Part shown: positions 1,830-44,781 of the stretch, one piece after another
Position numbering within the stretch: position 1 is the first letter of the stretch
Layout of the letters: each line of letters opens with the position of its first letter
NCBI GenBank assembly: GCA_964604245.1
Contig: CAZRYJ010000003.1
Location: 1-44,880 of the forward strand
Length of the DNA stretch: 44,880 nt
DNA from: an uncultured bacterium
GTDB taxonomy: Bacteria; Hydrothermota; UBA3072
Direction: 5' to 3'
Translations under genes and position numbers: made by a program
Notes under the pieces: model-generated
Told to the model about the DNA's origin: nothing
The model's input: only the letters and a program-made list of their open reading frames with translations
Databases searched by the model: none

Positions 1830-1876
1830 GTGTAATCTTTGAAAAATAGTATTTTAAGCTAAAATTTGAGGAAATT

Positions 1877-1922
1877 AACCACAAGATTTCACAGATTAAC
1901 ACCAGATTACCCAACCCCTCCC
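1877..1922 (+). repeat. GATT-word element (full form with CCCAACC tail)
   Basis: aaCCACaagattt-CACagattaa-CACcagatta-CCCAACCcctccc. CAC occurs at 1880, 1890 and 1900, an exact 10-nt phase. Confidence 0.8.
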
Positions 1923-5306: not shown

Positions 5307-5323
5307 GAGTAAAAATTATATAA

Positions 5324-5353
5324 ATCACGAAACACACAAAAAACACGAAAAAA
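5324..5353 (+). repeat. CACGAA-word module
   Basis: atCACGAAaCACacaaaaaaCACGAAaaaa. Confidence 0.75.
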
Positions 5354-5366
5354 TAAAAAAATAATT

Positions 5367-5408
5367 TTACCACAGAGAGCACAGAGCCACACCTCACCCC
5401 ATTTTTTT
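5367..5408 (+). repeat. CACAGAG-word element with CACCCC-T7 tail
   Basis: ttaCCACagagagCACagagCCACacctCACCCCattttttt. Confidence 0.8.
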
Positions 5409-13971: not shown

Positions 13972-14457
13972 TTACATCCTGAACTTTCCGAAATCTTCCG
14001 GCTTAATGTCCTCCATATACTTTTTTATATCTTGGACCTTTTTATTATCATCAAGATCCAATTTTATACCACCTTTATCCATCACTTTATCCTGTACATA
14101 GATAGGAATATGATTCTTAGAGGCCAGGGCAAGTGAATCACTAGGTCTCGAATCTATTCTGAATATTGCGTTGTCTTTCTTTAGATAAATTTCAGCAAAA
14201 TAGGTATCATCTTTTAAATCGGAAACCACAACTTTTGATATATCTACCTTCAAGCCCTTAAGTACATTCAAAAGTAAATCATGAGTAAGAGGACGCTTAA
14301 ACTGTTCGTTTTTCAGTCCTTGAGATATCGCTTCAGCTTCAAAAGGACCTATCCAAATAGGAAGAACCCTCTTCTTTTCGTCAATATCTCTTAAAAGTAC
14401 TACCGGAGTATTTGAGGTTCTGTCAATCGCAATACCTGCAATTTTAACTTCCCTCAC
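13972..14457 (-). CDS. bifunctional nuclease family protein (BFN/DUF151)
   Basis: PVVLLRD...RVLPIWIGPFEAEAI....RPLTHDL and RPSDSLALA motifs typical of the BFN domain. Confidence 0.8.
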   Translation of the reverse strand: MREVKIAGIAIDRTSNTPVVLLRDIDEKKRVLPIWIGPFEAEAISQGLKNEQFKRPLTHDLLLNVLKGLKVDISKVVVSDLKDDTYFAEIYLKKDNAIFRIDSRPSDSLALASKNHIPIYVQDKVMDKGGIKLDLDDNKKVQDIKKYMEDIKPEDFGKFRM

Positions 14458-15229
14458 TCTCCTCCTCCTTAAGAGAATTTTCTTCTGTCTCAGTAGCTTC
14501 TTCTCTTACCTCCGGAGATTCTTCTTCCTCCGAAGCAGACACTTCTTCTACTTTCGGAGACTCTTCTTTAACCTCTACCGGTTCTTCTTTCTCCTCAGGG
14601 GATGCCTCTGCTTCAGGTACTTCCTCTTTAACCTCTTCAGAAGATTCTTCTTCCTCCGAAGCAGACACTTCTTCTACTTCAGGAGATTCTTCTTTAACCT
14701 CTACCGATTCTTCTTTCTCCTCGGAAGATTTCTCTTCCTCAGCGGACTCATCTTTGACCTCTTGGGATTCTTCTTCTTCCTCAGAAGCTTCCCCCTCAAC
14801 GATAAGCTTAATATGGGCTTTTACATCCTTAAATAAATTCAATTGTATCTCATATGATCCGGTTTCTCTTATATGGTCTTCTATATCCATAATCTTTTTA
14901 TCAATAAGAAACCCTTCTTCCTTTAAAAGGTCTTCAATATCTTGTTTGGTTATAGAACCATACAGTTTACCCTCTTTACCGACTTTAGCCTCAACTTTAA
15001 ACTCTTTGCCATCGATTTTCTCTTTAATCTGCTCTGCAGACATCGTTTCCTTTTCCAATTTAATTTCTTCGAATTTGCCTTCTGCTTTGATGCTGGCTTT
15101 ATTACCGGGAGTGTTAAGAACCGCAATATTTTTTGGTATCAAGTAGTTTCTCGCATATCCATCAGCGACTTGAACAACCTTACCTCTCTCTCCTAAATGC
15201 GGATGATTTTCCTTAAGTATTACTTCCAT
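14444..15229 (-). CDS. rplI: 50S ribosomal protein L9 with long acidic C-terminal extension
   Basis: Canonical L9 N-terminus MEVILKENHPHLGERGKVVQVADGYARNYLIPKNIA. The core ends near aa 145, and aa 146-261 are an E/S/V/P-rich tail. Confidence 0.9.
   Translation of the reverse strand: MEVILKENHPHLGERGKVVQVADGYARNYLIPKNIAVLNTPGNKASIKAEGKFEEIKLEKETMSAEQIKEKIDGKEFKVEAKVGKEGKLYGSITKQDIEDLLKEEGFLIDKKIMDIEDHIRETGSYEIQLNLFKDVKAHIKLIVEGEASEEEEESQEVKDESAEEEKSSEEKEESVEVKEESPEVEEVSASEEEESSEEVKEEVPEAEASPEEKEEPVEVKEESPKVEEVSASEEEESPEVREEATETEENSLKEEESEGS
14474..14725 (-). repeat. 2 x 126-bp in-frame tandem repeat inside the rplI tail
   Basis: Protein units are SEEKEESVEVKEESPEVEEVSASEEEES.. (aa 169-210) and PEEKEEPVEVKEESPKVEEVSASEEEES.. 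(aa 211-252). The DNA string ttcttcctccgaagcagacacttcttctac recurs 126 nt apart (about 14521 and 14647). Confidence 0.85.
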
Positions 15230-15525: not shown

Positions 15526-15553
15526 AATTTATATAGATTGATAATATAGTCAA
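15526..15553 (-). promoter_or_regulatory. putative promoter for the rpsR-led gene string
   Basis: On the minus strand: TTGACT (15553..15548), a 16-nt spacer, then TAAATT (15531..15526). Confidence 0.4.
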
Positions 15554-15638
15554 GCCCTGAACAATAGCTTTTTTTATGACAGAAAGCAATAAGAAATATA
15601 GCGAATCCAATGCCAATGTCTAAAGTCTGATGACCGTT

Positions 15639-15668
15639 AACACAAAGCCCCTCCACACCCATTTTTTT
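15639..15668 (+). repeat. CACAAAG variant with CCACACCC-T7 tail
   Basis: aaCACAAAGCCCCtCCACACCCattttttt. Confidence 0.7.
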
Positions 15669-15689
15669 ATTTATTGTTTTTACTAGATT

Positions 15690-15750
15690 CCACTCCCCAA
15701 ATCTTAAATCCTAAAAAAAGACTGAATTAACAAGATTTACCGGATTTTTT
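15690..15750 (+). repeat. CCCCAAATC-TAAATCC module followed by a short GATT-word pair
   Basis: ccactCCCCAAATCttAAATCCtaaaaaaa ... aacaaGATTTaccgGATTTttt. Confidence 0.6.
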
Positions 15751-15818
15751 ATTTGTTTTTTTTGAAAGACCCGAAACTAGAAGCTCATAACTTGTAACTA
15801 TAATTCCACAAGCCTTCA

Positions 15819-17399
15819 TCAGGAATCCAGTATTTTTTGCGCTTCTTCTTTATCACATTTCATTATATATTGAATACCGCTTATCTCACTCGCTTCATGT
15901 GTTAAAGCAGCAATATCGTCCCGGGTAATATATTCCAGTGCAAATTTACGACAGCCCGCCATAATCTGCCTCAATCCTTGATTTAATCTCTCCATATAGG
16001 TATATAGACCCATCGCGCCTGTTGGAAGATTTTCAAAGTCGCTTCCGAGTTTTCTCTTAAGTGCCGGTGCTGTAACAAATATCTCTTCAGGCGTATTTCC
16101 AAATCTTTCAATGTATACAGGAACCATTCCCTCATTGATTGTCTTCCCGATTGTCTTGCCCACCATGGCTGCTGCAAGCGGAGCCCTCGCCATACCTATT
16201 AATTTAAAGTGTGGCGCACCAAGTGCCAATCCTTTCAACATCTGGTCCTCAAATGCGAATCCACCTGCTATAGCAATATCCGGAACATACTCCCCTCTCC
16301 TGGCAAGTCTATCAACATATTTGTAGAGTAAAGAATGCAATTCGACCTCCGGTACACCCCATTCGTTCATCATTCTCCAGGGACTCATACCTGTTCCGCC
16401 ACCGGCTGCATCTACGGTTAGCAAATCAATCTCTGCCTTTGATGAAAACTTCAATGCTCTTGCCAGATCTACAGGTCTGTATGCGCCTGTCTTGAGGAAA
16501 ACGTGTTTTGCGCCTAAACTTTTCAGTTCCTTTACCCTCTTCAAAAAACTTTCCTCAGTAACCATACCTACCCTGGAATGCCGTTCGAACTCTTTAAAAT
16601 TGCCTTTTTCAAATGCCTTGATAATATCCGGTTTTGTTGGATCAGGTAGGACAATGTACCCTCTTTTTTTCAGGAGCTGAGCTCTTTTCAAATCCTTGAT
16701 TTTAACCTCACCACCTATGTTTTTTGCTCCCTGCCCCCATTTCAGTTCAACAGCGTCAACATCCAGTTCCGAAATAGCATATTCATGAACCCCTAAATTT
16801 GTGTCCTCTACATTCGCCTGGACAATTATCGCACCATATCCGTCCTGCTGCCATTTTTTGTAGAGTTTTACTCTCCACTCAAGATCCGTTGAATGCTTTA
16901 CTTTTCCATCAACAATTTCAGATTCAGGGTCCATTCCGCACACATTTTCACCGATAGTTAAGGGTATACCTGTTAACGCCGCACCTATTGCCAGTCCCTC
17001 CCAGTTGTTTTTCGCTATGGCTGTCGAACCTAAACCGGGTATGATTACAGGCATCTTAAGTTTTATATCCTTATTTTTTCCAATATTCGTTTCTATATTT
17101 ACATTTGAGAATAACGCTTCATCGCTGTCAGCCTTTATTCCTTCAGCACCTACGATTCCTCCGAGTATTGTGAAATGAGACAGGTCAACAGGATAAATTT
17201 TTTCGTTTGCGGAAGTTATTATTCCAAAAGGCTGGGGATAAATCACCTCATGCCCTCGATAGGCGGATTTACCTATTTCGCACATCCCTATACATCCGTC
17301 TACACAGGTTGCGCACATTCCGCTCATTGAATTTATTGCCCCTTCAGTTCTATTTTTTGTCAGCGTTGCCGCTGTTGCGTTAATCTTTGTTAAAGACAT
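15819..17399 (-). CDS. glutamate synthase-related FMN subunit (GltB domain-2 type) with N-terminal Cys cluster
   Basis: 526 aa. N-terminal CATCVDGCIGMCEIGKS (CxxCxxxCxxxC), a TIM-barrel FMN region with VDAAGGGTGMSP and IAGGF. There is no glutamine amidotransferase domain and no GXGXG domain. Overlaps the upstream gene by 10 nt. Confidence 0.8.
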   Translation of the reverse strand: MSLTKINATAATLTKNRTEGAINSMSGMCATCVDGCIGMCEIGKSAYRGHEVIYPQPFGIITSANEKIYPVDLSHFTILGGIVGAEGIKADSDEALFSNVNIETNIGKNKDIKLKMPVIIPGLGSTAIAKNNWEGLAIGAALTGIPLTIGENVCGMDPESEIVDGKVKHSTDLEWRVKLYKKWQQDGYGAIIVQANVEDTNLGVHEYAISELDVDAVELKWGQGAKNIGGEVKIKDLKRAQLLKKRGYIVLPDPTKPDIIKAFEKGNFKEFERHSRVGMVTEESFLKRVKELKSLGAKHVFLKTGAYRPVDLARALKFSSKAEIDLLTVDAAGGGTGMSPWRMMNEWGVPEVELHSLLYKYVDRLARRGEYVPDIAIAGGFAFEDQMLKGLALGAPHFKLIGMARAPLAAAMVGKTIGKTINEGMVPVYIERFGNTPEEIFVTAPALKRKLGSDFENLPTGAMGLYTYMERLNQGLRQIMAGCRKFALEYITRDDIAALTHEASEISGIQYIMKCDKEEAQKILDS

Positions 17400-18106
17400 T
17401 TTTTTCCTCCATTATTATTCGTATTTTTATTTTTTTCTGATTCTGTTAACAAACATGCAGCACATGGGTCCATGTAACAGTGAACATCTTCGTACACATC
17501 AAGACATGGATATTCAATATTAAGACATCCTCCACACACAGCACCCGGTGGTTCGGGACCCTGACATCTAAGCTGACATGTCGGGCAAATATACATGCAC
17601 GCACCGCATGTTCTGCATACATCAGATTTAATATCAAATGGCGTTGTTATTTTCCTTTCTTTGCCTCTGTTTACAAAACCTATTGCCCGTGCATCCATCT
17701 GTTCTTCACACATTCTTGTACAAAGACCACAAAGTATGCAGTCATCGCTTTTTAACTTGAATCTTACACTGGTCACATTGTATTTGGATGCCAAATCCTG
17801 AATGGTTTTTGAAGTATGACATCTTGCGAGCATAAGTTCTATTATTAATTTTCTGTAATTTATAACCTTTTTAGAATGTGTTCTAACTACCAATCCTTCT
17901 TCTACCGGGTATGTACAGGATGAAACGAATTTTGCGTTTTTTCCTTCACCAATTTCCACTATACAAAGTCTGCAGGCGCCATAATCCGAGAGACCGTCAT
18001 GATGACATAATGTCGGGATTTCTATCCCATAAAACTCAGCAGCTTCCAATATTGTCCAACCCTCTTCCACCTGGACTTCCAGTCCATTAAGTTTTATCTT
18101 TACCAC
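17390..18106 (-). CDS. 2Fe-2S plus 2x[4Fe-4S] ferredoxin-domain protein (NuoG/HydA N-terminal-like, no catalytic domain) with Cys-rich tail
   Basis: MVKIKLNGLEVQVEEGWTILEAA..IPTLCHH...ACRLC...SSC (plant-type 2Fe-2S). CILCGLCTRMC and CRTCGACMYICP are ferredoxin-type clusters. The last ~50 aa carry 9 further Cys. Confidence 0.75.
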   Translation of the reverse strand: MVKIKLNGLEVQVEEGWTILEAAEFYGIEIPTLCHHDGLSDYGACRLCIVEIGEGKNAKFVSSCTYPVEEGLVVRTHSKKVINYRKLIIELMLARCHTSKTIQDLASKYNVTSVRFKLKSDDCILCGLCTRMCEEQMDARAIGFVNRGKERKITTPFDIKSDVCRTCGACMYICPTCQLRCQGPEPPGAVCGGCLNIEYPCLDVYEDVHCYMDPCAACLLTESEKNKNTNNNGGKKCL

Positions 18107-21100
18107 TTTCTACCTCTTCTTTAAACTGCTTTTTCCCATCCTCAGTTTCTAAATCGCACCTAACACAGCGCCTTGCCTCTCTAATAGCAGCTTCTTCGGT
18201 AAAACCTAACTCTACCTCATCGAAATTGTTAACCCTTTTACTCACTGATAAATATGGCATTGCTTGTCTTTCTGCTTCCATAACCTCTTCTTCTGTCAGT
18301 TCAACTGGCTCTACATACATTGATGGTCTAATTATTTTGTATTCTCTTACCAACGGCTTACCCTGCAGATACTTATCGATCATTTCTGCAGCTATTTTAC
18401 CGGACGACATAGCTTCTATCACTGTGTTGGGGCCCTTTACAACATCTCCTCCGGCAAAAACACCGGCTACACTTGTAACGAATGTCTCATGATTTACTAC
18501 TATAGTGTTGTGCTTACTTATTTCAAATTTGTTTCTGTCAAGGAAAGAAACATCCGGTTGTTCACCTATAGCTACTACTATCAGAGAGTCGATTTCAACA
18601 ACAAACTCTGAACCCTTAATCGGAATCGGTCTTTTTCTGCCGGATTCATCCATTTCCCCCAATTTCATCTTAATGCATTCAACCCCGGTAATTTTTCTAT
18701 TTTTAGTCAAAATCTTTACAGGTGCTGTCAGTAACTGCATCTCGATTTTTTCTTCGATAGCTGCATTTACCTCTTCCTTGATCGCAGGCATCTCATTTAT
18801 TGTTCTCCTGTATATTATAAAGACCTTTTCACAACCCTTTATACGGTTAGCGGCCCTGGCAGCATCAACAGCAGCATTACCTCCACCAATGACACCAACT
18901 CTTTTACCTATTTTAACCTCTTTTCCAAGGTTTATATCCTTCAAAAAATCCATAGCATGCAGAACACCAGCAGCATCTTCATTCGGGATACCTAACTTCA
19001 AAGATTTGTGTGCGCCAGTTGCAATGAATATGGCGTCGTACTTGTCTCGAAGTTCATCAAAAAGAATATCCTTTCCTACAGTAACATTGGTTTTGATTTC
19101 CACTCCTGCATTTCTGATATTCTCAATATCTTTATTTAAAATCTTCTTAGGAAGCCTGTAATCCGGTATGTATGCATACAACGCGCCACCAACGACAGGC
19201 AAAGATTCGAAAATAGTAACGGTATATCCTTTCCGAGCAAGATAATAACTCGCTGTAAGCCCGGCGGGTCCGGAGCCAATAACAGCAACTTTTTCTTTCT
19301 TTGGCTTTTCAGTTTTACAAGAAGGTTTAAATCCCTCTCTTAAAGCGTAATCTGTAACAAATCTTTTAAGTCCTCTGATAGATATAGGGTCGCCGAATTT
19401 ACCCGATTGGCATTTGAATTCGCATGGATGATGACACACCCTGGCACAAACAGACGGCAGGGGGTTATCTTTCCAGATTATATCGAATGCCTCTTTGAAT
19501 CTTCCTCTGGCAATCAGTGAAATGTAAACAGGAACTTCTGTATCTATAGGACAAGTATGCTGACAGGGCGAAGAGATGATTTCTTTACATACCGCGGCGG
19601 GACAATTTTTGTATTTAATATGCTGCTCATATTCATCTTTGAAGTATCTGATAGTCGAAAGCAAAGGATTCGGAGCGGTCTGCCCAAGCCCACACATGGA
19701 CGTATCTTTGACAAGTTCACCTAATTCTTTCAATAGTTCGATGTCTTCTTCCTTTCCTGTTCCCTCAATGATACCGGTAAGTATTTCAAGCAATCTCTCA
19801 ATACCTTCTCTGCAGGTAAGACATTTGCCGCAGGATTCCTCCTGAAGAAACTCAAGAAAGTATTTCGCGGTATCAACCATGCAAGTATCCTCATCCATCA
19901 CAACCATACCACCGGAACCCATTATAGACCCAAGTGCCTTTAAACTCTCATAATCAACAGGCGTATCTAAAAATTCTTCAGGTATACATCCTCCTGACGG
20001 TCCTCCCGTTTGGACTGCTTTAAACTTCTTACTCTGAGGTATACCCCCTCCGATATCGTACACCATCTCCCTCAACGTTATACCCATAGGAACTTCAACT
20101 AAACCCGTATTGTTTATCTTTCCAACCAACGAGAATATTTTTGTACCTTTGCTTCCTTCTGTTCCAATTTCCGAGAACCACTCTGCGCCGTTGTTAATAA
20201 TCAGCGGTACGTTCGCCCATGTTTCAACATTATTTATATTCGTCGGCTTTCTCCATATTCCTTTCTGAGCAGGAAACGGTGGTCTCTGTCTTGGCTCACC
20301 CTTCTTTCCCTCTATTGATGCAATAAGCGCCGTCTCTTCACCACAAACGAACGCACCAGCTCCTGTAATCACCTCTATATCAAAATTAAAATCTGTACCA
20401 AGTATCCCTTTGCCAAGCAATCCGTATTCTTCCATCTGGGTTATAGCTATTTTAACATTTTTTACGGCAAGAGGATACTCATGCCTGACATATATGAACC
20501 CTTCACTCGAACCAATAGCATATGCTCCAATCAGCATTCCTTCTAAAACAGAATGAGGATTTCCTTCCAGAAGGCTTCTATTCATATAGGCACCGGGGTC
20601 TCCTTCATCGGCATTACAAACAATGTATTTTACGTCACCCTTAGCCTTTCTGCAAAACTCCCATTTGATACCTGCCGGGAAACCAGCTCCACCCCTGCCA
20701 CGTAAACCCGATTTTTTCACCTCATATATTATCTCTTCAGGTTTCATTGTTTTGAGAGTTTTGCAGAATGCCGAATATCCACCAATTCCAATATAGTCCT
20801 CTATCTTATTGGGATCAATCAATACATTACTGGCTAAATGCGTTCTGACCTGTTTCTGGTAAAAGGGGATATCTTTTTCATATTTAATATTTTTACCGGT
20901 TTTTGGATCAACATACAGCAAACGATCAATAACTTTTTTATTGATAATAGCTTCAGATACAATTTCCTCTGCATCTTCCGGTTTAACACTTTGATAGAAT
21001 ATATTTTCAGGATTAACAATAACTATAGGCTCTACCTGACAAAAACCGTGACAGCCTGTTATCCTTGTATTCACCTTTTTGTCCAAATTGTGTTTTTTTA

Positions 21101-21263
21101 GCGATTCCCTTAATGCATCAATAACAGCTAAAGATCCTTTAGCTTGACCACACGTACCAGATGACACTATTAGACACAACTCATTAGATTCATTTTTTTT
21201 AGATTCACGAATTTCACCACACAATGATTCAAATTCACCTATATCCGAAAATCTCATATTCAT
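18087..21263 (-). CDS. NuoF-like (NADH/FMN/4Fe-4S) :: GltD/NfnB-like (FAD/NADPH) fusion flavoprotein with N-terminal thioredoxin-like 2Fe-2S domain
   Basis: 1058 aa. SSGTCGQAKG...GCHGFCQ (thioredoxin-like FeS), GLRGRGGAGFPAGIKW (NuoF FMN site) and ESCGKCLTCREG (N3-type cluster). NPLPSVCARVCHHPCEFKC is a GltD N-terminal FeS motif. VAVIGSGPAGLTASYYLARKG and VGVIGGGNAAVDAARAA are two Rossmann folds, followed by FAGGDVV. Confidence 0.85.
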   Translation of the reverse strand: MNMRFSDIGEFESLCGEIRESKKNESNELCLIVSSGTCGQAKGSLAVIDALRESLKKHNLDKKVNTRITGCHGFCQVEPIVIVNPENIFYQSVKPEDAEEIVSEAIINKKVIDRLLYVDPKTGKNIKYEKDIPFYQKQVRTHLASNVLIDPNKIEDYIGIGGYSAFCKTLKTMKPEEIIYEVKKSGLRGRGGAGFPAGIKWEFCRKAKGDVKYIVCNADEGDPGAYMNRSLLEGNPHSVLEGMLIGAYAIGSSEGFIYVRHEYPLAVKNVKIAITQMEEYGLLGKGILGTDFNFDIEVITGAGAFVCGEETALIASIEGKKGEPRQRPPFPAQKGIWRKPTNINNVETWANVPLIINNGAEWFSEIGTEGSKGTKIFSLVGKINNTGLVEVPMGITLREMVYDIGGGIPQSKKFKAVQTGGPSGGCIPEEFLDTPVDYESLKALGSIMGSGGMVVMDEDTCMVDTAKYFLEFLQEESCGKCLTCREGIERLLEILTGIIEGTGKEEDIELLKELGELVKDTSMCGLGQTAPNPLLSTIRYFKDEYEQHIKYKNCPAAVCKEIISSPCQHTCPIDTEVPVYISLIARGRFKEAFDIIWKDNPLPSVCARVCHHPCEFKCQSGKFGDPISIRGLKRFVTDYALREGFKPSCKTEKPKKEKVAVIGSGPAGLTASYYLARKGYTVTIFESLPVVGGALYAYIPDYRLPKKILNKDIENIRNAGVEIKTNVTVGKDILFDELRDKYDAIFIATGAHKSLKLGIPNEDAAGVLHAMDFLKDINLGKEVKIGKRVGVIGGGNAAVDAARAANRIKGCEKVFIIYRRTINEMPAIKEEVNAAIEEKIEMQLLTAPVKILTKNRKITGVECIKMKLGEMDESGRKRPIPIKGSEFVVEIDSLIVVAIGEQPDVSFLDRNKFEISKHNTIVVNHETFVTSVAGVFAGGDVVKGPNTVIEAMSSGKIAAEMIDKYLQGKPLVREYKIIRPSMYVEPVELTEEEVMEAERQAMPYLSVSKRVNNFDEVELGFTEEAAIREARRCVRCDLETEDGKKQFKEEVESGKDKT

Positions 21264-21736
21264 TATGCATTCTCACTCTTTTTGTATTTATTTAAAATTG
21301 TACCTACCATTCTTTGTGTTACATGAGAATAATAAGTATTACCTATGACTACAACTGGACCCAATGCACAGCATCCAAGACATCTAACAGTTTCTAAGGT
21401 GAATAGTTTGTCTCCTGTCGTTTCGCCAACATCAATGTCCAGTCTTCTTTTAACTTCATCAACAATCCTTTGCCCCCCTCTCACATGGCAGGCTGTGCCA
21501 ACACATACATTTATAATATGCTTTCCTCTTGGCTTCAAACTGAAAACTTTGTAAAACGTGGCTGCGGAATAGACCTGTATAAGCGGAATATTTAGTCTAT
21601 TTGCTACGGTTACAAGAGCTTCTTTTGGAAGATAATTGTACTCCGATTGAATATCTAACAGTATGGAAATCAATGAATCGTCCTCATTATTCCATTTATC
21701 CAAAATAGATTCAACAGATATTAATGATTCCATCAC
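21263..21736 (-). CDS. NuoE/HydC-like thioredoxin-fold 2Fe-2S subunit
   Basis: 157 aa. CVGTACHVRGG...CLGCCALGP four-Cys pattern of the 24-kDa subunit family. The ATG at 21733 is the likely start (the track uses the GTG at 21736). The stop overlaps the next ATG as TAATG. Confidence 0.85.
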   Translation of the reverse strand: MMESLISVESILDKWNNEDDSLISILLDIQSEYNYLPKEALVTVANRLNIPLIQVYSAATFYKVFSLKPRGKHIINVCVGTACHVRGGQRIVDEVKRRLDIDVGETTGDKLFTLETVRCLGCCALGPVVVIGNTYYSHVTQRMVGTILNKYKKSENA

Positions 21737-21792
21737 AACGATCTCTCATTTAATCGAGATAAAGTGATTCTAAAAGGATTCAACTCTTCCAT
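21733..21792 (-). CDS. candidate 19-codon upstream ORF derived from the gdhA 5' end (MEELNPFRITLSRLNERSL)
   Basis: ATG at 21792 behind GAAGGAGG plus a 7-nt spacer. The first 7 codons are identical in protein to the gdhA N-terminus (MEELNPF). The TGA stop (21735..21733) overlaps the nuoE-like ATG as TGATG. The nuoE-like gene has no RBS of its own. Confidence 0.4.
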   Translation of the reverse strand: MEELNPFRITLSRLNERSL

Positions 21793-21861
21793 TAATTCGA
21801 CCTCCTTCGAAGGACAAATTCGCACTACTCTCCAATTCGACTATTTATAAATTCAAGTTCG

Positions 21862-21889
21862 AATATATACACGTTATAAATAATGTCAA
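21862..21889 (-). promoter_or_regulatory. sigma70-type promoter of the nuoE-like operon (paralogous to the gdhA promoter)
   Basis: On the minus strand: TTGACA (21889..21884), a 16-nt spacer, then TATATT (21867..21862). The hexamers and spacing match the gdhA promoter. Confidence 0.65.
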
Positions 21890-21909
21890 GGCTAAAATTC
21901 GTTTTTTTA

Positions 21910-21923
21910 TGAATTTTTATTCA
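21910..21923. promoter_or_regulatory. conserved palindrome TGAAT-N4-ATTCA upstream of -35 (candidate regulator site)
   Basis: tgaatttttattca is identical to 23722..23735. It lies about 20 nt upstream of -35 in both paralogous promoter regions. Confidence 0.45.
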
Positions 21924-21981
21924 ATTCTATATGAATAATTCAAGAAATAAAGATTTTAAACTATCCAGAAAAAAAATTATA

Positions 21982-22014
21982 AACCACGAAACACACTAAA
22001 TACACGAAAAAAAC
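21982..22014 (+). repeat. CACGAA-word module
   Basis: aaCCACGAAaCACactaaataCACGAAaaaaac. Confidence 0.75.
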
Positions 22015-22030
22015 AAATAAATTTAAAAAA

Positions 22031-22083
22031 TCACCAAAGAGGACACAGAGAAGGAAGAACACACCGAGACCACAGAGAAAAAA
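22031..22083 (+). repeat. CACAGAG-word element
   Basis: tCACcaaagaggaCACAGAGaaggaagaaCACaccgagaCCACAGAGaaaaaa. Confidence 0.8.
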
Positions 22084-22297: not shown

Positions 22298-22347
22298 ATA
22301 AGAAATAAAAACAGGCTAACGGACGTTAGCCTGTTTTTATTTCTTAT
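22298..22347. terminator. gdhA intrinsic terminator: 50-nt perfect palindrome, potentially bidirectional
   Basis: ataagaaataaaaacaggctaacg-ga-cgttagcctgtttttatttcttat. It has a GC-containing core stem with A-run/T-run flanks on both strands and starts 14 nt after the gdhA stop. Confidence 0.8.
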
Positions 22348-22361
22348 GGTAATTAAGCCTA

Positions 22362-23606
22362 CTACACCCAGCCTCTTATTTTCATCGCATCAACGACTCT
22401 CTTAACCGCAACCATATAAGCGGCAAGCCGGTTGTGTACTTTCTCATTAGCTCTCATATCATGAACAGCGTGAAAAGCTTTAGTCATATGCTCATCGAGT
22501 TCATTGTAAACCCTCTCAATAGGCCAGTAATAACCTGCTTCATTCTGAACCCATTCAAAATAAGAAACCGTTACACCACCAGCATTTGCAAGAAAATCAG
22601 GTATTACATAGCAATCATTATTATGAAGAATTTTATCCGCCTCAGGAGTTGTCGGTCCATTCGCGAGCTCTACGCTTATCTTAGCTTTAATCTTACTTGC
22701 ATTTTTTTCGGTAATAACATTTTCCAATGCTGCCGGGATTAGCACATCTACATCGAGCTCAAGTAATTCTTCATTACTAATTTTATCTTCGTCCAATTTA
22801 ACAACACTGCCTTTTTTTAATTTAGTGCTTATGCATTTCTTTGCTTTTAAACCGCTCTTATTCAATATTGCACCTTTTGAATCAGATATGGCGATTACTT
22901 TAGAACCAAACATTTCTTCTATTAGAGAATGAGCAAACTGTCCCGCATTACCGTATCCTTGAATTGCAACTGTCGCTTTAGAAAGATCTATGTCGTTTAT
23001 ATACGCGGCTTCCCTCAAAACAAACATTCCGCCTCTTGCTGTAGCATCTCCCCTGCCGAGTGAACCGCCGACATTAATCAACTTTCCGGTTATCACTCCG
23101 GGAGTGTTATAACCGGTTATATTTGAATATTCATCCATCATCCATGCCATAATCTGCGGCGTAGTGTAAACATCCGGAGCGGGAATGTCTTTCTTTGGGC
23201 CTATAAACCTGCCGAGAGCTCTGATATAACCCCTGGCAAGACGCTCTTTCTCACCCTCGGACATTTCTTTTGGATTACAGATAACACCACCCTTACTTCC
23301 ACCATAAGGGATATCAACTACAGAAGTCTTCCATGTCATCCAGGCCGCGAGAGCCCTGACTGTATCTATAGTTTCTTCGGGATGCCACCGTATACCGCCT
23401 TTTGTAGGTCCACGAGCGTCATTGTACTGGACCCTGAACCCCTGAAATACTTTTGTGGTACCGTCATCTATTTTAACCGGTATAGTAACATGAAGTTCAC
23501 GCATCGGCCACCTTAGCATCTCGTGAGTACCCGAATCGAGCTTAAGAAGCTTTGCAGCTTCATCTAACTGAGCCTGCGCGATTTTAAAAGGATTTAACTC
23601 TTCCAT
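22362..23606 (-). CDS. gdhA: glutamate dehydrogenase (Glu/Leu/Phe/Val dehydrogenase family)
   Basis: PYGGSKGGV catalytic Lys motif and the GYGNAGQ Rossmann motif. I place the start at the ATG at 23606 (MEELNPFK), 7 nt after GAAGGAGG. The track start (TTG 23624) lies inside that RBS. Confidence 0.95.
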
Positions 23607-23673
23607 CAAATTAACCTCCTTCAAAAGCTATTTTTTTACCTACTCCCCAATTCAATCCCTTACAATTAAATCG

Positions 23674-23701
23674 AATATACATAAGTTACAAATATTGTCA
23701 A
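23674..23701 (-). promoter_or_regulatory. sigma70-type gdhA promoter
   Basis: On the minus strand: TTGACA (23701..23696), a 16-nt spacer, then TATATT (23679..23674). Confidence 0.65.
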
Positions 23702-23721
23702 GGGTAAAAATTCATTATTTG

Positions 23722-23735
23722 TGAATTTTTATTCA
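23722..23735. promoter_or_regulatory. conserved palindrome TGAAT-N4-ATTCA upstream of the gdhA -35
   Basis: tgaatttttattca is identical to 21910..21923. Confidence 0.45.
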
Positions 23736-23780
23736 ATTTTTTCCGAATAATTTAAATCATAGCGCGGCAAAGCCGCTATT

Positions 23781-23962: not shown

Positions 23963-24026
23963 AAAAAATAAAAATTAAAGGGGATGAGTGGGTTTAGCGT
24001 TCTCTGTGCTCTCTGTGGTTAAAAAA
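23963..24026 (-). repeat. CACAGAG-word element, reverse orientation
   Basis: Reverse complement: ttttttaaCCACagagagCACagagaacgctaaaCCCACtCAtCCCCtttaatttttatttttt. Confidence 0.8.
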
Positions 24027-24054
24027 TTGGAGGTAGTATGGTGGAACATTACCA

Positions 24055-24082
24055 TTGACAACTTCGTCTTGAATTATATACT
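24055..24082 (+). promoter_or_regulatory. sigma70-type promoter, apparently leaderless, for the DUF2905 gene and glycan block
   Basis: TTGACA at 24055..24060, a 16-nt spacer, then TATACT at 24077..24082. Only 5 nt separate it from the ATG at 24088, and there is no RBS. Confidence 0.5.
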
Positions 24083-24087
24083 TTAAT

Positions 24088-24303
24088 ATGAAAATTGAGG
24101 CGCCTTTATTCTTGCTTGGATGTACTTTTGTAAGCATAGGAATTCTATTTATGTTATTTGCTAAAATTCCATTCTTTTCGCGTTTACCGGGAAGCATAGT
24201 AATTGAGAGAAGAAATTTTGTATTTCTCTTCCCCCTGGTTTTCTGTATTTCTGCTTCTATAATTCTAACGTTGGCACTAAATTTATTTTTTGCCAGAAAA
24301 TAG
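24088..24303 (+). CDS. small membrane protein, DUF2905-like
   Basis: 71 aa with two TM helices flanking RLPGSIVIERRNFVFLFP, which resembles the DUF2905 core (LPGDI.ieR.nf.fyfP). Confidence 0.6.
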   Translation: MKIEAPLFLLGCTFVSIGILFMLFAKIPFFSRLPGSIVIERRNFVFLFPLVFCISASIILTLALNLFFARK

Positions 24304-29349: not shown

Positions 29350-29411
29350 ACACCCCGATACAGTCATTCTTCCTTACGGGGCTGGCAAATAACACAAATC
29401 AATTAAAAAAA

Positions 29412-29492
29412 TTTACCACAGAGGACACAGAGAAAAAGACACACAGAGCACACAATACTCCAATAATAGCCACGGATGTACACAGATTTAAT
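29412..29492 (+). repeat. CACAGAG element plus CCAATAAT linker plus GAT-word module
   Basis: tttaCCACAGAGgaCACAGAGaaaaagaCACACAGAGcacacaatactCCAATAATagCCACGGATgtaCACAGATTtaat. Confidence 0.8.
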
Positions 29493-34597: not shown

Positions 34598-34646
34598 TTA
34601 ACCACAAGATTACACAGATTATCACAAGATTTTTGTTGTTGTTTTT
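34598..34646 (+). repeat. GATT-word element (TTTTGTTG-tail form)
   Basis: ttaaCCACaagattaCACagattatCACaagatttttgttgttgttttt. CAC occurs at 34603, 34613 and 34623, an exact 10-nt phase. Confidence 0.8.
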
Positions 34647-44510: not shown

Positions 44511-44556
44511 CTAACCACAAGATTCCACAGATTAGCACAAGATTTTTCTTGTTTTC
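44511..44556 (+). repeat. GATT-word element (TTTT-tail form)
   Basis: ctaaCCACaagattcCACagattagCACaagatttttcttgttttc. CAC occurs at 44516, 44526 and 44536. Confidence 0.8.
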
Positions 44557-44564
44557 GGACAAGA

Positions 44565-44623
44565 GACCAGCGACTAATGACCAGTGACCATATTTACTAA
44601 ATCCCAACCCCCAAATCCCAGAT
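44565..44623 (+). repeat. GACCAG word pair, then CCCAACCCCCAAATCCC module
   Basis: GACCAGcgactaatGACCAGtGACCAt ... ctAAATCCCAACCCCCAAATCCCagat. Confidence 0.55.
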
Positions 44624-44630
44624 ATTAATT

Positions 44631-44698
44631 TCACCGCAGAGACACAGAGAACACAGAGATATTGGGACGCAGATAAACGCAGATTTACAGGATTTTTT
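44631..44698 (+). repeat. CACAGAG element followed by a GAT-word triplet
   Basis: tCACcGCAGAGaCACAGAGaaCACAGAGatattgggaCGCAGATaaaCGCAGATttaCAGGATttttt. Confidence 0.8.
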
Positions 44699-44710
44699 CT
44701 TTTTTGTTTT

Positions 44711-44746
44711 GACACAAGACTCACTACGCACGACTCAAGACTCAAT
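44711..44746 (+). repeat. AAGACTCA word pair
   Basis: gacaCAAGACTCActacgcacgaCTCAAGACTCAat. Confidence 0.5.
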
Positions 44747-44781
44747 TACACACAGATTATCACAAGATTTTTTGTTGTTTT
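44747..44781 (+). repeat. GATT-word module (TTTTGTTG-tail form)
   Basis: tacaCACagattatCACaagattttttgttgtttt. Confidence 0.75.

What the first reader, a model, noticed from the sequence alone, without database searches (positions are those of the whole stretch)
21733..21942. The gdhA promoter, 5'UTR and first codons were duplicated and now drive the nuoE-like operon through a coupled uORF
By hand alignment, minus-strand 21942..21733 is paralogous to 23755..23547. The shared blocks run in order: GAATAATT, ATTGAATAAAAATTCA, TTGACA-16 nt-TATATTCGA, GAATTGGRGAGTAG, GAAGGAGGT and ATGGAAGAGTTRAATCCTTTT. Weaker similarity continues for about 10 more codons ([10 protein letters not shown] versus RITLSRLNER). 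In the copy, the reading frame ends after 19 codons with a TGA that overlaps the ATG of the nuoE-like gene (TGATG). That gene has no Shine-Dalgarno of its own. A fragment of gdhA therefore seems to have been co-opted as a leader peptide or translational coupler. The two glutamate-related units would then share transcription and translation-initiation signals.
Basis: seen in the sequence. Interest (0 to 1): 0.8.

Follow-up and report, generated by a model that had tools for sequence, protein, structure and literature searches.

The report
Duplicated gdh promoter heads neighbouring operon
About 195 bases from the front of the glutamate dehydrogenase gene (a textbook arginine-repressor binding site, the promoter, the ribosome-binding site and the first 16 codons) were copied in front of a neighbouring redox-enzyme operon in an uncultured WOR-3-type bacterium, giving a natural example of promoter capture in which the leftover gene fragment probably hands ribosomes on to the next gene.

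Summary
Minus-strand 21940..21745 is a paralogue of 23752..23559 (local alignment z = 40 against shuffles). Ten related metagenomic lineages carry the copy in front of nuoE, and the eight that also reach the gdh 5' region carry both copies. Copies cluster by type, so there was one old duplication. The copied codons are a native Gdh N-terminus, so the direction is gdh to nuoE.

New here: the shared 'ATTGAATAAAAATTCA' block is a canonical ARG box, the ArgR/AhrC operator. In the gdh copy a second, degenerate box lies 3 bp downstream and overlaps the -35 hexamer, as in the classical E. coli operator. Both units are therefore probably arginine-controlled. This is inferred: no argR gene was seen.

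The 19-codon ORF keeps the strongest Shine-Dalgarno in the region (-12.4 kcal/mol). nuoE has almost none (-2.9). The TGATG stop/start overlap is kept in 8 of 10 lineages. The peptide evolves without coding constraint (variable sites 10/8/8 by codon position, against 3/3/16 in gdh), yet it stays open (P about 0.04-0.07). One lineage with a premature stop has gained its own GGAG before nuoE. This fits a ribosome-delivery coupler, not a functional peptide.

No riboswitch or attenuator was found. It is a new member of a known kind: promoter capture plus translational coupling.

The parts
23559..23752 (-). Source segment: gdh control region, 5'UTR and codons 1-16
   Evidence: Aligns with 21745-21940. 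Limits were refined with relatives and coordinates checked.
23720..23737 (-). ARG box 1 of gdh (ATTGAATAAAAATTCACA), putative ArgR operator
   Evidence: Matches the published consensus TNTGAATWWWWATTCANW / CATGAATAAAAATKCAAK (PMC5291005). The 14-nt core is kept in 14 of the 16 distinct copies listed. Perfect cores expected by chance in the window: 0.04; found: 2.
23699..23716 (-). ARG box 2 of gdh (AATGAATTTTTACCCTTG), degenerate, 3 bp after box 1, overlapping the -35 hexamer by 3 nt
   Evidence: The left half TGAAT is invariant in the nine orthologous gdh copies, 21 bp from the TGAAT of box 1. The two-box, 3-bp architecture is canonical (PMC6640053; PMC4381063).
23674..23701 (-). gdh promoter TTGACA-16-TATATT
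   Evidence: Matches the consensus at 11 of 12 positions. The -35 hexamer is invariant in relatives; the -10 hexamer TATATT is present in 13 of the 16 copies listed.
23614..23622 (-). gdh Shine-Dalgarno GAAGGAGGT, 7 nt before the ATG
   Evidence: Predicted anti-SD pairing of -12.4 kcal/mol.
22362..23606 (-). gdh (414 aa, hexameric Glu/Leu/Phe/Val dehydrogenase type)
   Evidence: Pfam PF00208 and PF02812; NCBIfam GdhA_Arch 602 bits, below that model's 750-bit cut-off.
22303..22333 (-). Intrinsic terminator of gdh (CAGGCTAAC-GTCC-GTTAGCCTG + T run)
   Evidence: Read directly from the sequence. Conserved in L111, L116 and L119. It separates the two transcription units.
21745..21940 (-). Duplicated segment in front of the nuoE-like operon
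   Evidence: Present in ten related lineages; absent from outgroups L095 and L097.
21908..21925 (-). ARG box 1 of the copy (ATTGAATAAAAATTCATA)
21886..21903 (-). ARG box 2 of the copy (AACGAATTTTAGCCTTGA): CGAAT instead of TGAAT, 4-bp spacer, overlapping the -35 hexamer by 4 nt
21862..21889 (-). Promoter copy TTGACA-16-TATATT
21800..21808 (-). Shine-Dalgarno copy GAAGGAGGT, able to pair with the preceding CCUUC in a small hairpin
   Evidence: Anti-SD pairing of -12.4 kcal/mol. Hairpin of -7.9 kcal/mol, z = -1.5, not significant.
21733..21792 (-). 19-codon ORF derived from the Gdh N-terminus (MEELNPFRITLSRLNERSL*); its TGA overlaps the nuoE ATG (TGATG)
   Evidence: Nineteen codons with -1 spacing in 8 of 10 lineages.
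21263..21733 (-). nuoE-like [2Fe-2S] thioredoxin-like ferredoxin (156 aa), weak SD
   Evidence: PF01257. Anti-SD pairing of -2.9 kcal/mol.
18087..21263 (-). NuoF-GltD fusion (1058 aa); its start overlaps the nuoE stop (TAATG)
17390..18106 (-). HoxU/NuoG-N-terminal-like Fe-S subunit (238 aa)
15819..17399 (-). FMN-binding glutamate synthase family protein (526 aa), last gene of the operon
   Evidence: PF01645, 56.8 bits. Source names. No PDB sequence relative.

Best explanation
A segment of about 195 bp was duplicated once in an ancestor of this WOR-3-type clade. It now sits 1.8 kb downstream, in front of the nuoE-like operon.

What the segment contains:
- the gdh operator, made of two tandem ARG boxes;
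- a near-consensus sigma-70 promoter;
- the 5'UTR with a strong Shine-Dalgarno;
- the first 16 codons of gdh.

Shown:
- the homology, its extent and its direction (gdh to nuoE);
- its conservation in ten related lineages;
- its absence from outgroups, whose nuoE operon sits elsewhere behind an unrelated upstream region.

Inferred:
(a) The copy is the operon's promoter, since gdh ends in a strong terminator.
(b) Both promoters are bound by an ArgR/AhrC-type arginine regulator at the ARG boxes. Repression is the more likely sign, because box 2 overlaps the -35 hexamer. If so, gdh and the NuoEF/GltD/GltB-like complex respond together to arginine, the end product made from glutamate.
(c) Ribosomes load at the inherited strong SD, translate the 19-codon relic of Gdh, and terminate at a TGA that shares a base with the nuoE ATG. 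They then reinitiate on nuoE, or unfold its start region. nuoE has almost no SD of its own.

On this reading the short ORF works as a ribosome-delivery element, a natural counterpart of engineered two-cistron 'bicistronic design' leaders. Its peptide is irrelevant.
For: Duplication:
- z = 40 against shuffles; repeats D4 and D7; alignments.
- Ten lineages carry the copy in front of nuoE; the eight whose contigs also reach the gdh 5' region carry both copies.
- A neighbour-joining tree separates all gdh-type copies from all nuoE-type copies.
- Outgroups L095 and L097 (NuoE 74% and 83% identical) lack the copy.
- Gdh N-termini of other phyla share the NPFxxAQxQxD motif.

Separate transcription units:
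- A terminator lies at 22333..22303.
- The two promoter-like sites are the best in the region.

ARG operator:
- Box 1 equals the published consensus and the E. coli MEME motif CTTTATGAATAAAAATTCAC.
- Perfect 14-nt cores: 2 found against 0.04 expected in the window.
- No perfect core occurs in the 80 unrelated loci L011-L090 or in the outgroups.
- The box-1 core is kept in 14 of the 16 copies listed. The TGAAT of box 2 sits exactly 21 bp downstream in the nine orthologous gdh copies.
- The design of two 18-bp boxes 3 bp apart overlapping the -35 hexamer is canonical.
- ArgR represses E. coli gltBDF as feedback on glutamate supply.

Coupling:
- SD energies are -12.4 kcal/mol (short ORF) against -2.9 (nuoE).
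- TGATG is -1 spacing, one of the enriched coupling motifs. Coupling is most efficient between -4 and +3 nt.
- The same TAATG junction links nuoE to the next gene.
- The ORF is 19 codons with -1 spacing in 8 of 10 lineages.
- Variable sites by codon position are 10/8/8 in the short ORF, against 3/3/16 in the same gdh codons.
- P(no premature stop after at least 30 random substitutions) = 0.04.
- L092 gained a premature TGA by substitution and at the same time carries a new GGAG 7 nt before the nuoE ATG.
- A 5-bp hairpin over the nuoE AUG is kept in 7 of 7 sequences, with one-sided changes.
Against: - There are no expression data of any kind. The transcription start site, promoter activity, ArgR binding and coupling are all untested.
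- No argR gene and no arginine genes lie in the 44.9-kb window. Presence of ArgR in the genome could not be checked.
- The promoter is near-consensus and box 1 is centred near -61, so an activator role or an UP-element contribution is possible.
- In the nuoE copies, box 2 has CGAAT and a 4-bp spacer, which is non-canonical.
- The evidence for maintenance of the open frame is weak. P = 0.04 excluding L092; my estimate with L092 included is about 0.07.
- L122 has lost the TGA. Its ORF ends 13 nt inside nuoE, which there starts with GTG.
- The leader RNA is not unusually structured (z = +1.25), and the small hairpins are not significant.
- nuoE keeps a conserved GAGAGA 8 nt upstream of its start, which could act as a weak SD.
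Confidence: 0.6

Rival explanations
1. The short ORF is only an evolutionary relic. It is translated because it inherited a strong SD, but nuoE is initiated independently, from the weak GAGAGA/GTG-ATG region or through standby binding. The stop/start overlap then has no functional role.
For: - The peptide is unconstrained.
- L122 lost the TGATG overlap and L092 truncated the ORF, so the arrangement can be dispensed with or modified.
- GAGAGA is conserved 8 nt before the nuoE start.
- Support for retention of the open frame is only P = 0.04-0.07.
Against: - nuoE has one of the weakest SDs among first genes of operons in this window, -2.9 kcal/mol against about -12 for rpsR, purC, mreB and coaBC.
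- The one lineage that truncated the ORF acquired a GGAG at the right spacing.
- There are no indels in the 57 nt across nine lineages, while the UTR just upstream has several.
- -1 spacing is within the optimal range for coupling.
Confidence: 0.25
2. The conserved palindrome is not an ArgR site. It is bound by a different regulator, for example a nitrogen or redox regulator acting as a class I activator near -61, or it acts mainly as an A+T-rich UP element.
For: - No argR gene was seen.
- Box 1 is centred near -61, a classical activator position (my inference).
- The whole -40 to -70 region is A+T-rich.
- Box 2 is degenerate, and in the nuoE copies it is non-canonically spaced.
Against: - The 14-nt core, and 17 of the 18 positions, match the ARG box.
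- The gdh copies have exactly the two-box, 3-bp architecture that overlaps the -35 hexamer.
- The ARG box is recognised in very different bacteria: E. coli, Bacillus, Listeria, Streptomyces and Chlamydia.
- ArgR control of glutamate synthesis genes has precedent.
Confidence: 0.3
3. The short ORF encodes a functional leader peptide, either an attenuation or ribosome-stalling sensor or a small protein, and is not a mere coupler.
For: - It is always present with a strong SD.
- The N-terminal MEELNPF and the C-terminal ..ER.L are relatively conserved.
Against: - Substitutions are spread evenly over codon positions (10/8/8).
- Eleven of 16 residues vary, against 3 of 16 in Gdh.
- There is no run of regulatory codons.
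- No terminator or antiterminator follows. The leader folds no better than shuffles, and there is no Rfam match.
- Conservation of the first seven codons is equally explained by constraints on translation initiation.
Confidence: 0.05
4. The similarity is convergence on the same promoter, operator and SD consensus, or it is an assembly artefact, and there was no duplication.
For: The most conserved blocks are functional consensus elements: ARG box, -35, -10 and SD.
Against: - Homology is collinear over about 195 nt. It includes non-consensus UTR blocks (GAATTGGRGAGTAG) and 16 codons of a Gdh N-terminus.
- The same arrangement is found in more than 20 independent contigs from JGI, ENA and Logan assemblies.
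Confidence: 0.01

Closest known systems
ARG operator of the ArgR/AhrC arginine repressor (E. coli artJ/artP/argCBH type; B. subtilis AhrC boxes)
   Same: - An 18-bp palindrome matching TNTGAATWWWWATTCANW / CATGAATAAAAATKCAAK.
- Two boxes 3 bp apart in the gdh copy, one of them more degenerate, overlapping the -35 hexamer.
- The targets supply glutamate, as with ArgR repression of E. coli gltBDF.
   Different: - The nuoE copies have CGAAT and a 4-bp spacer.
- The regulator itself was not found in the data available, and the sign of regulation is unknown.
- In E. coli gltBDF the boxes lie far upstream (-361 to -318), not over the promoter.
Translational coupling by termination-reinitiation or RNA unfolding, and the engineered two-cistron 'bicistronic design' (BCD) leaders
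   Same: - A short, efficiently initiated first cistron whose stop overlaps the start of the gene of interest (TGATG, -1 spacing).
- The downstream gene has a weak SD lying inside the leader ORF.
- The peptide sequence is irrelevant.
- The review PMC12548453 describes short upstream ORFs that 'deliver' a ribosome. BCD papers are listed.
   Different: - This one is natural, and was generated from a fragment of another gene's coding region.
- Coupling is not demonstrated.
- Variants exist with -13 overlap (L122) or with +22 spacing plus its own SD (L092).
Promoter capture / promoter reuse ('putative mobile promoters', Matus-Garcia, Nijveen & van Passel 2012; rnk-citT capture in the E. coli long-term evolution experiment)
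   Same: - Highly similar upstream regions in front of non-homologous genes within one genome. The pair here is 80% identical over 85 nt, which meets the criterion of at least 80% over at least 50 nt.
- No insertion sequence is involved.
- The effect is to rewire regulation.
   Different: - The copied piece runs into the coding region and keeps 16 codons. The PMP survey filtered out such cases by design.
- The copy is old and conserved across species, so it is not a recent event.
- It carries a recognisable operator.
Leader-peptide attenuators (trpL, pheL, ermCL and similar)
   Same: A short ORF with its own SD lies in the 5' leader of an amino-acid-related operon.
   Different: - There are no regulatory codon runs.
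- There are no alternative terminator/antiterminator hairpins.
- The peptide is unconstrained, and the stop overlaps the next start.

Membership tests
ARG operator (ArgR/AhrC regulon member) | An 18-bp imperfect palindrome matching TNTGAATWWWWATTCANW | tested here: met
   ATTGAATAAAAATTCACA and ATTGAATAAAAATTCATA match the 14-nt core perfectly and 17 of 18 positions overall. Chance expectation is 0.04 per window.
ARG operator (ArgR/AhrC regulon member) | Two boxes separated by 2-3 bp | tested here: inconclusive
   The gdh copies have a second box exactly 3 bp downstream, with a perfect TGAAT-WWWW left half and a degenerate right half. The nuoE copies have CGAAT and a 4-bp spacer.
ARG operator (ArgR/AhrC regulon member) | Operator overlaps or adjoins the regulated promoter | tested here: met
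   Box 2 overlaps TTGACA by 3 nt (gdh) or 4 nt (copy). Compare artJ/artP.
ARG operator (ArgR/AhrC regulon member) | An ArgR/AhrC protein is encoded in the genome and binds in an arginine-dependent way | not testable with these tools
   No argR lies in the window or in the flanks fetched. The rest of the genome was not available.
Translationally coupled gene pair (termination-reinitiation) | Co-directional ORFs with stop/start spacing of -4 to +3 nt | tested here: met
   TGATG is -1 spacing. It is kept in 8 of 10 lineages. The range is taken from the review.
Translationally coupled gene pair (termination-reinitiation) | The upstream ORF is efficiently initiated and the downstream start is poorly accessible or lacks an SD | tested here: met
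   SD pairing of -12.4 against -2.9 kcal/mol. A 5-bp hairpin over the nuoE AUG is kept in 7 of 7 sequences, although it is not energetically significant.
Translationally coupled gene pair (termination-reinitiation) | Downstream translation depends on upstream translation | not testable with these tools
   This needs reporter fusions or ribosome profiling.
Putative mobile promoter / promoter reuse | At least 80% identity over at least 50 nt upstream of non-homologous genes in one genome | tested here: met
   D4 is 85 nt at 80% identity. The downstream genes are gdh and nuoE-like. The criterion is from PMC3575422.
Leader-peptide transcription attenuator | Regulatory codons plus alternative terminator/antiterminator structures between the leader ORF and the first gene | tested here: not met
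   No terminator-like site lies between 21792 and 21700. The leader folds no better than shuffles, and the peptide is unconstrained.
Known cis-regulatory RNA (riboswitch, T-box, glutamine-type motifs) | A match to an Rfam covariance model | tested here: not met
   No match falls in either leader, even at E <= 10.

The most novel reading that the evidence does not exclude
The ARG-box promoter downstream of gdh may be a reusable 'landing pad' that recruits different cargo into the arginine regulon.
- In the window's clade it drives the nuoE operon, in two forms: with a NuoF-GltD fusion or with an unfused NuoF.
- In L119 a promoter about 88% identical to the nuoE-type copy (identity estimated by eye) sits at the same place and drives a second, distantly related gdh.
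- In L103, L111 and L116 the whole cassette is missing.

If this is true, promoter-plus-leader modules would be exchanged by recombination among WOR-3 populations as units of regulatory evolution. The Gdh-derived short ORF would be the generic translational adaptor that lets any incoming gene be expressed without an SD of its own.
Probability: 0.15. Interest if true: 0.6.

Novelty: new member of a known kind. Interest (0 to 1): 0.4.

Why it matters
It is a clean, phylogenetically dated natural case of regulatory rewiring in bacteria. One duplication of about 195 bp moved an operator, a promoter and a translation-initiation region in a single step. It put a NuoEF-type, glutamate-synthase-like redox complex under the same control as glutamate dehydrogenase, probably arginine-responsive.

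It also shows how a gene fragment can survive as a purely mechanical 'ribosome-delivery' ORF. This is the natural counterpart of the bicistronic leaders that synthetic biologists design.

For WOR-3-type bacteria, which have a single recently cultured representative, it gives a first concrete and testable regulatory prediction: ArgR, ARG boxes, gdh and this operon.

It does not reveal a new mechanism.

Tried and rejected
- Rfam scan of both leaders at a permissive threshold: only chance matches at the gdh terminator, nothing in the UTRs.
- RNA folding of the whole leader: no more stable than shuffles, z = +1.25.
- Local hairpins: the SD-sequestering CCUUC-GAA-GGAGG hairpin, the AUCUC..GAGAU hairpin inside the ORF and the hairpin over the nuoE AUG are conserved but not energetically significant.
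- A long-range helix between the short ORF's start and nuoE codons 5-8, predicted by RNAalifold, has one compensatory change only. I did not rely on it.
- Rex, FNR/CRP, NtcA, GlnR/TnrA and NrpR consensus sites were compared from memory with the palindrome and rejected. Their half-sites or spacing do not fit, whereas the ARG box fits exactly.
- Looked for further ARG boxes or an argR gene in the window: none.
- Metagenome-wide scan for the box + spacer + TTGACA pattern, to find other regulon members: only gdh-type and nuoE-type promoters of this clade were true homologues. The other hits were unrelated chance matches.
- Tried to resolve the tandem-gdh hypothesis by searching for homologues of the second gdh of L119. 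Only short fragments at most 80% identical, from many phyla, came back, with no usable context.
- GTDB genome scan with the NuoF-GltD fusion: the nearest relatives are only 58-65% identical, too distant to compare promoters. It did show the four-gene operon, and occasional gdh adjacency, in several phyla.
- PDB sequence search for the 526-aa protein: no hit.
Full report

Yes. On the minus strand, 21942..21733 and 23755..23547 align collinearly.
- The local score is 135, against 20.8 +/- 2.8 for 500 dinucleotide-preserving shuffles (z = 40). Apart from itself, the only other strong match of the copy anywhere in the window is the gdh 5' region.
- The repeat finder reports the pair independently: 85 nt at 80% identity and 66 nt at 76%.
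- The short ORF (21792..21733, MEELNPFRITLSRLNERSL*) ends in a TGA whose A is the A of the nuoE ATG.
- With relatives as a guide, homology runs from about 15 nt upstream of the palindrome to codon 16. The segments are 23752..23559 and 21940..21745, about 195 nt each.

**2. Gene context**

All of these genes lie on the minus strand.

| Gene | Coordinates | Notes |
|---|---|---|
| gdh | 22362..23606 | 414 aa; ends in a strong intrinsic terminator at 22333..22303 |
| nuoE-like | 21263..21733 | follows the duplicated segment and the short ORF |
| NuoF-GltD fusion | 18087..21263 | 1058 aa |
| HoxU-like Fe-S protein | 17390..18106 | |
| FMN-binding glutamate synthase family protein | 15819..17399 | 526 aa |

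- The operon's genes overlap one another. The nuoE/nuoF junction is TAATG.
- The complex resembles NuoEF-based Stn/Nfn-type modules.
- It has no amidotransferase domain and no solved-structure relative for its last subunit. 'Glutamate-related' is therefore plausible but unproven.
- The organism is a relative of candidate division WOR-3, going by the source names of P0006 and P0241.

**3. Relatives**

The identical NuoE occurs on 18 JGI contigs with the same arrangement.

Nine more lineages, with NuoE 84-94% identical, carry the copy in front of nuoE: L091, L092, L093, L094, L096, L113, L120, L121 and L122. All except L093 and L122, whose contigs do not reach the gdh 5' region, also show the gdh-type copy.

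In an 11-sequence alignment, all gdh-type copies cluster together and all nuoE-type copies cluster together. This means one duplication before these lineages split, and no ongoing gene conversion.

Two outgroups (L095 at 74% and L097 at 83%) have the nuoE operon elsewhere. It lies next to a divergent MshEN/DUF6982 gene, behind an unrelated upstream region.

Three close relatives of gdh (L103, L111 and L116, about 90% identical) go straight from the gdh terminator to rpsR-rplI. They lack the whole cassette.

Distant Gdh proteins start with ..NPF[EK][IM]AQxQFD... The copied codons are therefore native to gdh, and the direction is gdh to nuoE.

**4. What the shared upstream palindrome is**

ATTGAATAAAAATTCA(N)(W) is a canonical ARG box.
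- The published consensus is TNTGAATWWWWATTCANW for E. coli and CATGAATAAAAATKCAAK for B. subtilis (PMC5291005).
- The E. coli MEME motif is CTTTATGAATAAAAATTCAC (PMC2811016).
- The 14-nt core occurs twice in the window, against 0.04 expected.
- It does not occur in the 80 unrelated loci or in the outgroups.
- It is kept in 14 of the 16 distinct copies listed.

In the nine orthologous gdh copies a second box (AATGAATTTTTACCCTTG) follows after exactly 3 bp and overlaps the -35 hexamer by 3 nt. Two 18-bp boxes 3 bp apart, overlapping the -35, is the canonical E. coli operator design (PMC6640053; PMC4381063).

The nuoE copies have CGAAT and a 4-bp spacer. The two promoters may therefore differ in affinity.

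ArgR repression of glutamate synthesis genes has precedent: E. coli gltBDF, interpreted there as feedback because glutamate is the precursor of arginine (PMC1784095).

I therefore infer, but cannot show, that both units belong to an ArgR/AhrC regulon. No argR gene lies in the sequence available.

**5. The short ORF**
- SD pairing to a canonical anti-SD is -12.4 kcal/mol for gdh and for the short ORF. This is among the strongest in the window. For nuoE it is -2.9.
- Across nine full-length lineages, the ORF has 26 variable sites spread 10/8/8 over codon positions, and 11 of 16 residues vary. The same gdh codons show 3/3/16, and 3 of 16 residues vary. The peptide is therefore not under amino-acid constraint.
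- Even so there are no indels and no premature stops. After at least 30 random substitutions this has P = 0.04. With L092 included, my estimate is about 0.07.
- Eight of ten lineages keep 19 codons and the TGATG (or ATGATG) overlap.
- L122 lost the TGA. Its ORF ends 13 nt inside nuoE, which there starts with GTG.
- L092 acquired a premature TGA by substitution and at the same time has a GGAG 7 nt before the nuoE ATG. This is a natural 'compensation' of the kind expected if nuoE normally depends on the upstream ORF.
- -1 spacing lies within the optimal coupling range, and short ORFs that deliver ribosomes have been proposed before (PMC12548453).

**6. What it is not**
- No Rfam family matches either leader.
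- The leader is not unusually structured.
- There is no terminator between the short ORF and nuoE.
- There are no regulatory codon runs. Riboswitch and attenuator models are rejected.
- Small conserved hairpins exist, one sequestering the SD and one over the nuoE AUG. They are weak.

**7. Origin**

The cassette (promoter copy through the last operon gene) is present or absent among close relatives.

In L119, a 1.4-kb contig that ends in adapter sequence, a promoter very similar to the nuoE-type copy sits in the same place after gdh. There it drives a second gdh, only 63% identical.

This hints at a tandem-gdh intermediate, or at reuse of the promoter as a landing pad. The follow-up search was uninformative. 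I leave this open.

**8. Verdict**

The main additions are:
- the ARG-box identification;
- the comparative dating of the duplication;
- the evidence that the ORF is kept open while its peptide drifts.

Promoter capture or reuse (PMC3575422) and translational coupling are both known phenomena. This is a well-documented new member of known kinds, not a new mechanism. Interest is moderate (0.4).

Noticed in passing
window 1876-1917, 5308-5391, 21967-22082, 29387-29437, 34599-34640, 44512-44778: Families of short GTG/CAC-rich intergenic repeats, with units of about 8-11 nt such as CACAAGATT and CACAGAGRA (minus strand: AATCTTGTG, TCTCTGTG). One block lies directly upstream of the duplicated promoter. 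Relatives L096, L113, L121 and L122 carry another variant of the family at the same position. The function is unknown: a protein-binding array or a small repeat element are possibilities.
   Followed up: partly
window 14444-15229 (-), repeats at 14511-14762: Ribosomal protein L9 (rplI) is 261 aa. It has a long acidic Glu/Ser-rich C-terminal extension built from a 126-nt tandem duplication. The homologue in L111 has a similar tail.
   Followed up: no
window 18087-21263 (-); L092, L093, L122, L097: The 1058-aa NuoF-GltD fusion is replaced in close relatives by an unfused NuoF of 618-620 aa with extra 4Fe-4S domains. Both forms occur behind the same duplicated promoter, and both occur at the outgroup location, which implies module swapping within the operon.
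   Followed up: no
window 15819-17399 (-): The 526-aa FMN-binding glutamate synthase family protein is 76-94% identical across WOR-3, Theionarchaea, Thermoplasmatota, Omnitrophica, Aminicenantes, Acidobacteriota and Bacteroidota. It has no sequence relative in the PDB. No amidotransferase domain is encoded in the operon, so the true substrate is unknown.
   Followed up: partly
L103, L111, L116 (gdh to rpsR); window 15540-21950: The whole cassette, from the promoter copy through the last operon gene (about 6.2 kb), is missing between gdh and the rpsR promoter in relatives whose Gdh is about 90% identical. It is an insertion/deletion polymorphism within the clade.
   Followed up: partly
L119:1-1386 (read on the minus strand): A short contig carries, in order: a gdh C-terminus, the terminator, a homologous spacer, a promoter close to the nuoE-type copy, and then a second, distantly related gdh (63% identical, N-terminus MRKINPFEIAQEQFDEVADQL). 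The contig ends in Nextera adapter sequence, so a chimera cannot be excluded.
   Followed up: partly
L095:4900-5000; L097:3480-3590: Outgroup nuoE operons lack the duplication. They do have an 8-codon mini-ORF (MKFFLHFL* / MEFFLHFL*) with an SD-like AAGGA/GGAG just upstream, and its TGA overlaps a TTG (TTGA). A leader ORF in front of nuoE may therefore predate the promoter replacement.
   Followed up: no
window 23994-24197 (-) and 24088-24303 (+): The 67-aa minus-strand gene called in the JGI contigs upstream of gdh has no family match. It overlaps a plus-strand 71-aa ORF that is DUF2905 (PF11146, E = 5.6e-13) and has its own TTGACA-16-TATACT promoter-like site at 24055-24082. The minus-strand call is probably spurious.
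   Followed up: yes
L092:3790-3860: In one relative, the ARG box in front of nuoE is tandemly duplicated (two copies of TTGAATAAAATTTCA 23 bp apart, plus the half box at the -35 hexamer). This is the same lineage whose short ORF is truncated.
   Followed up: no
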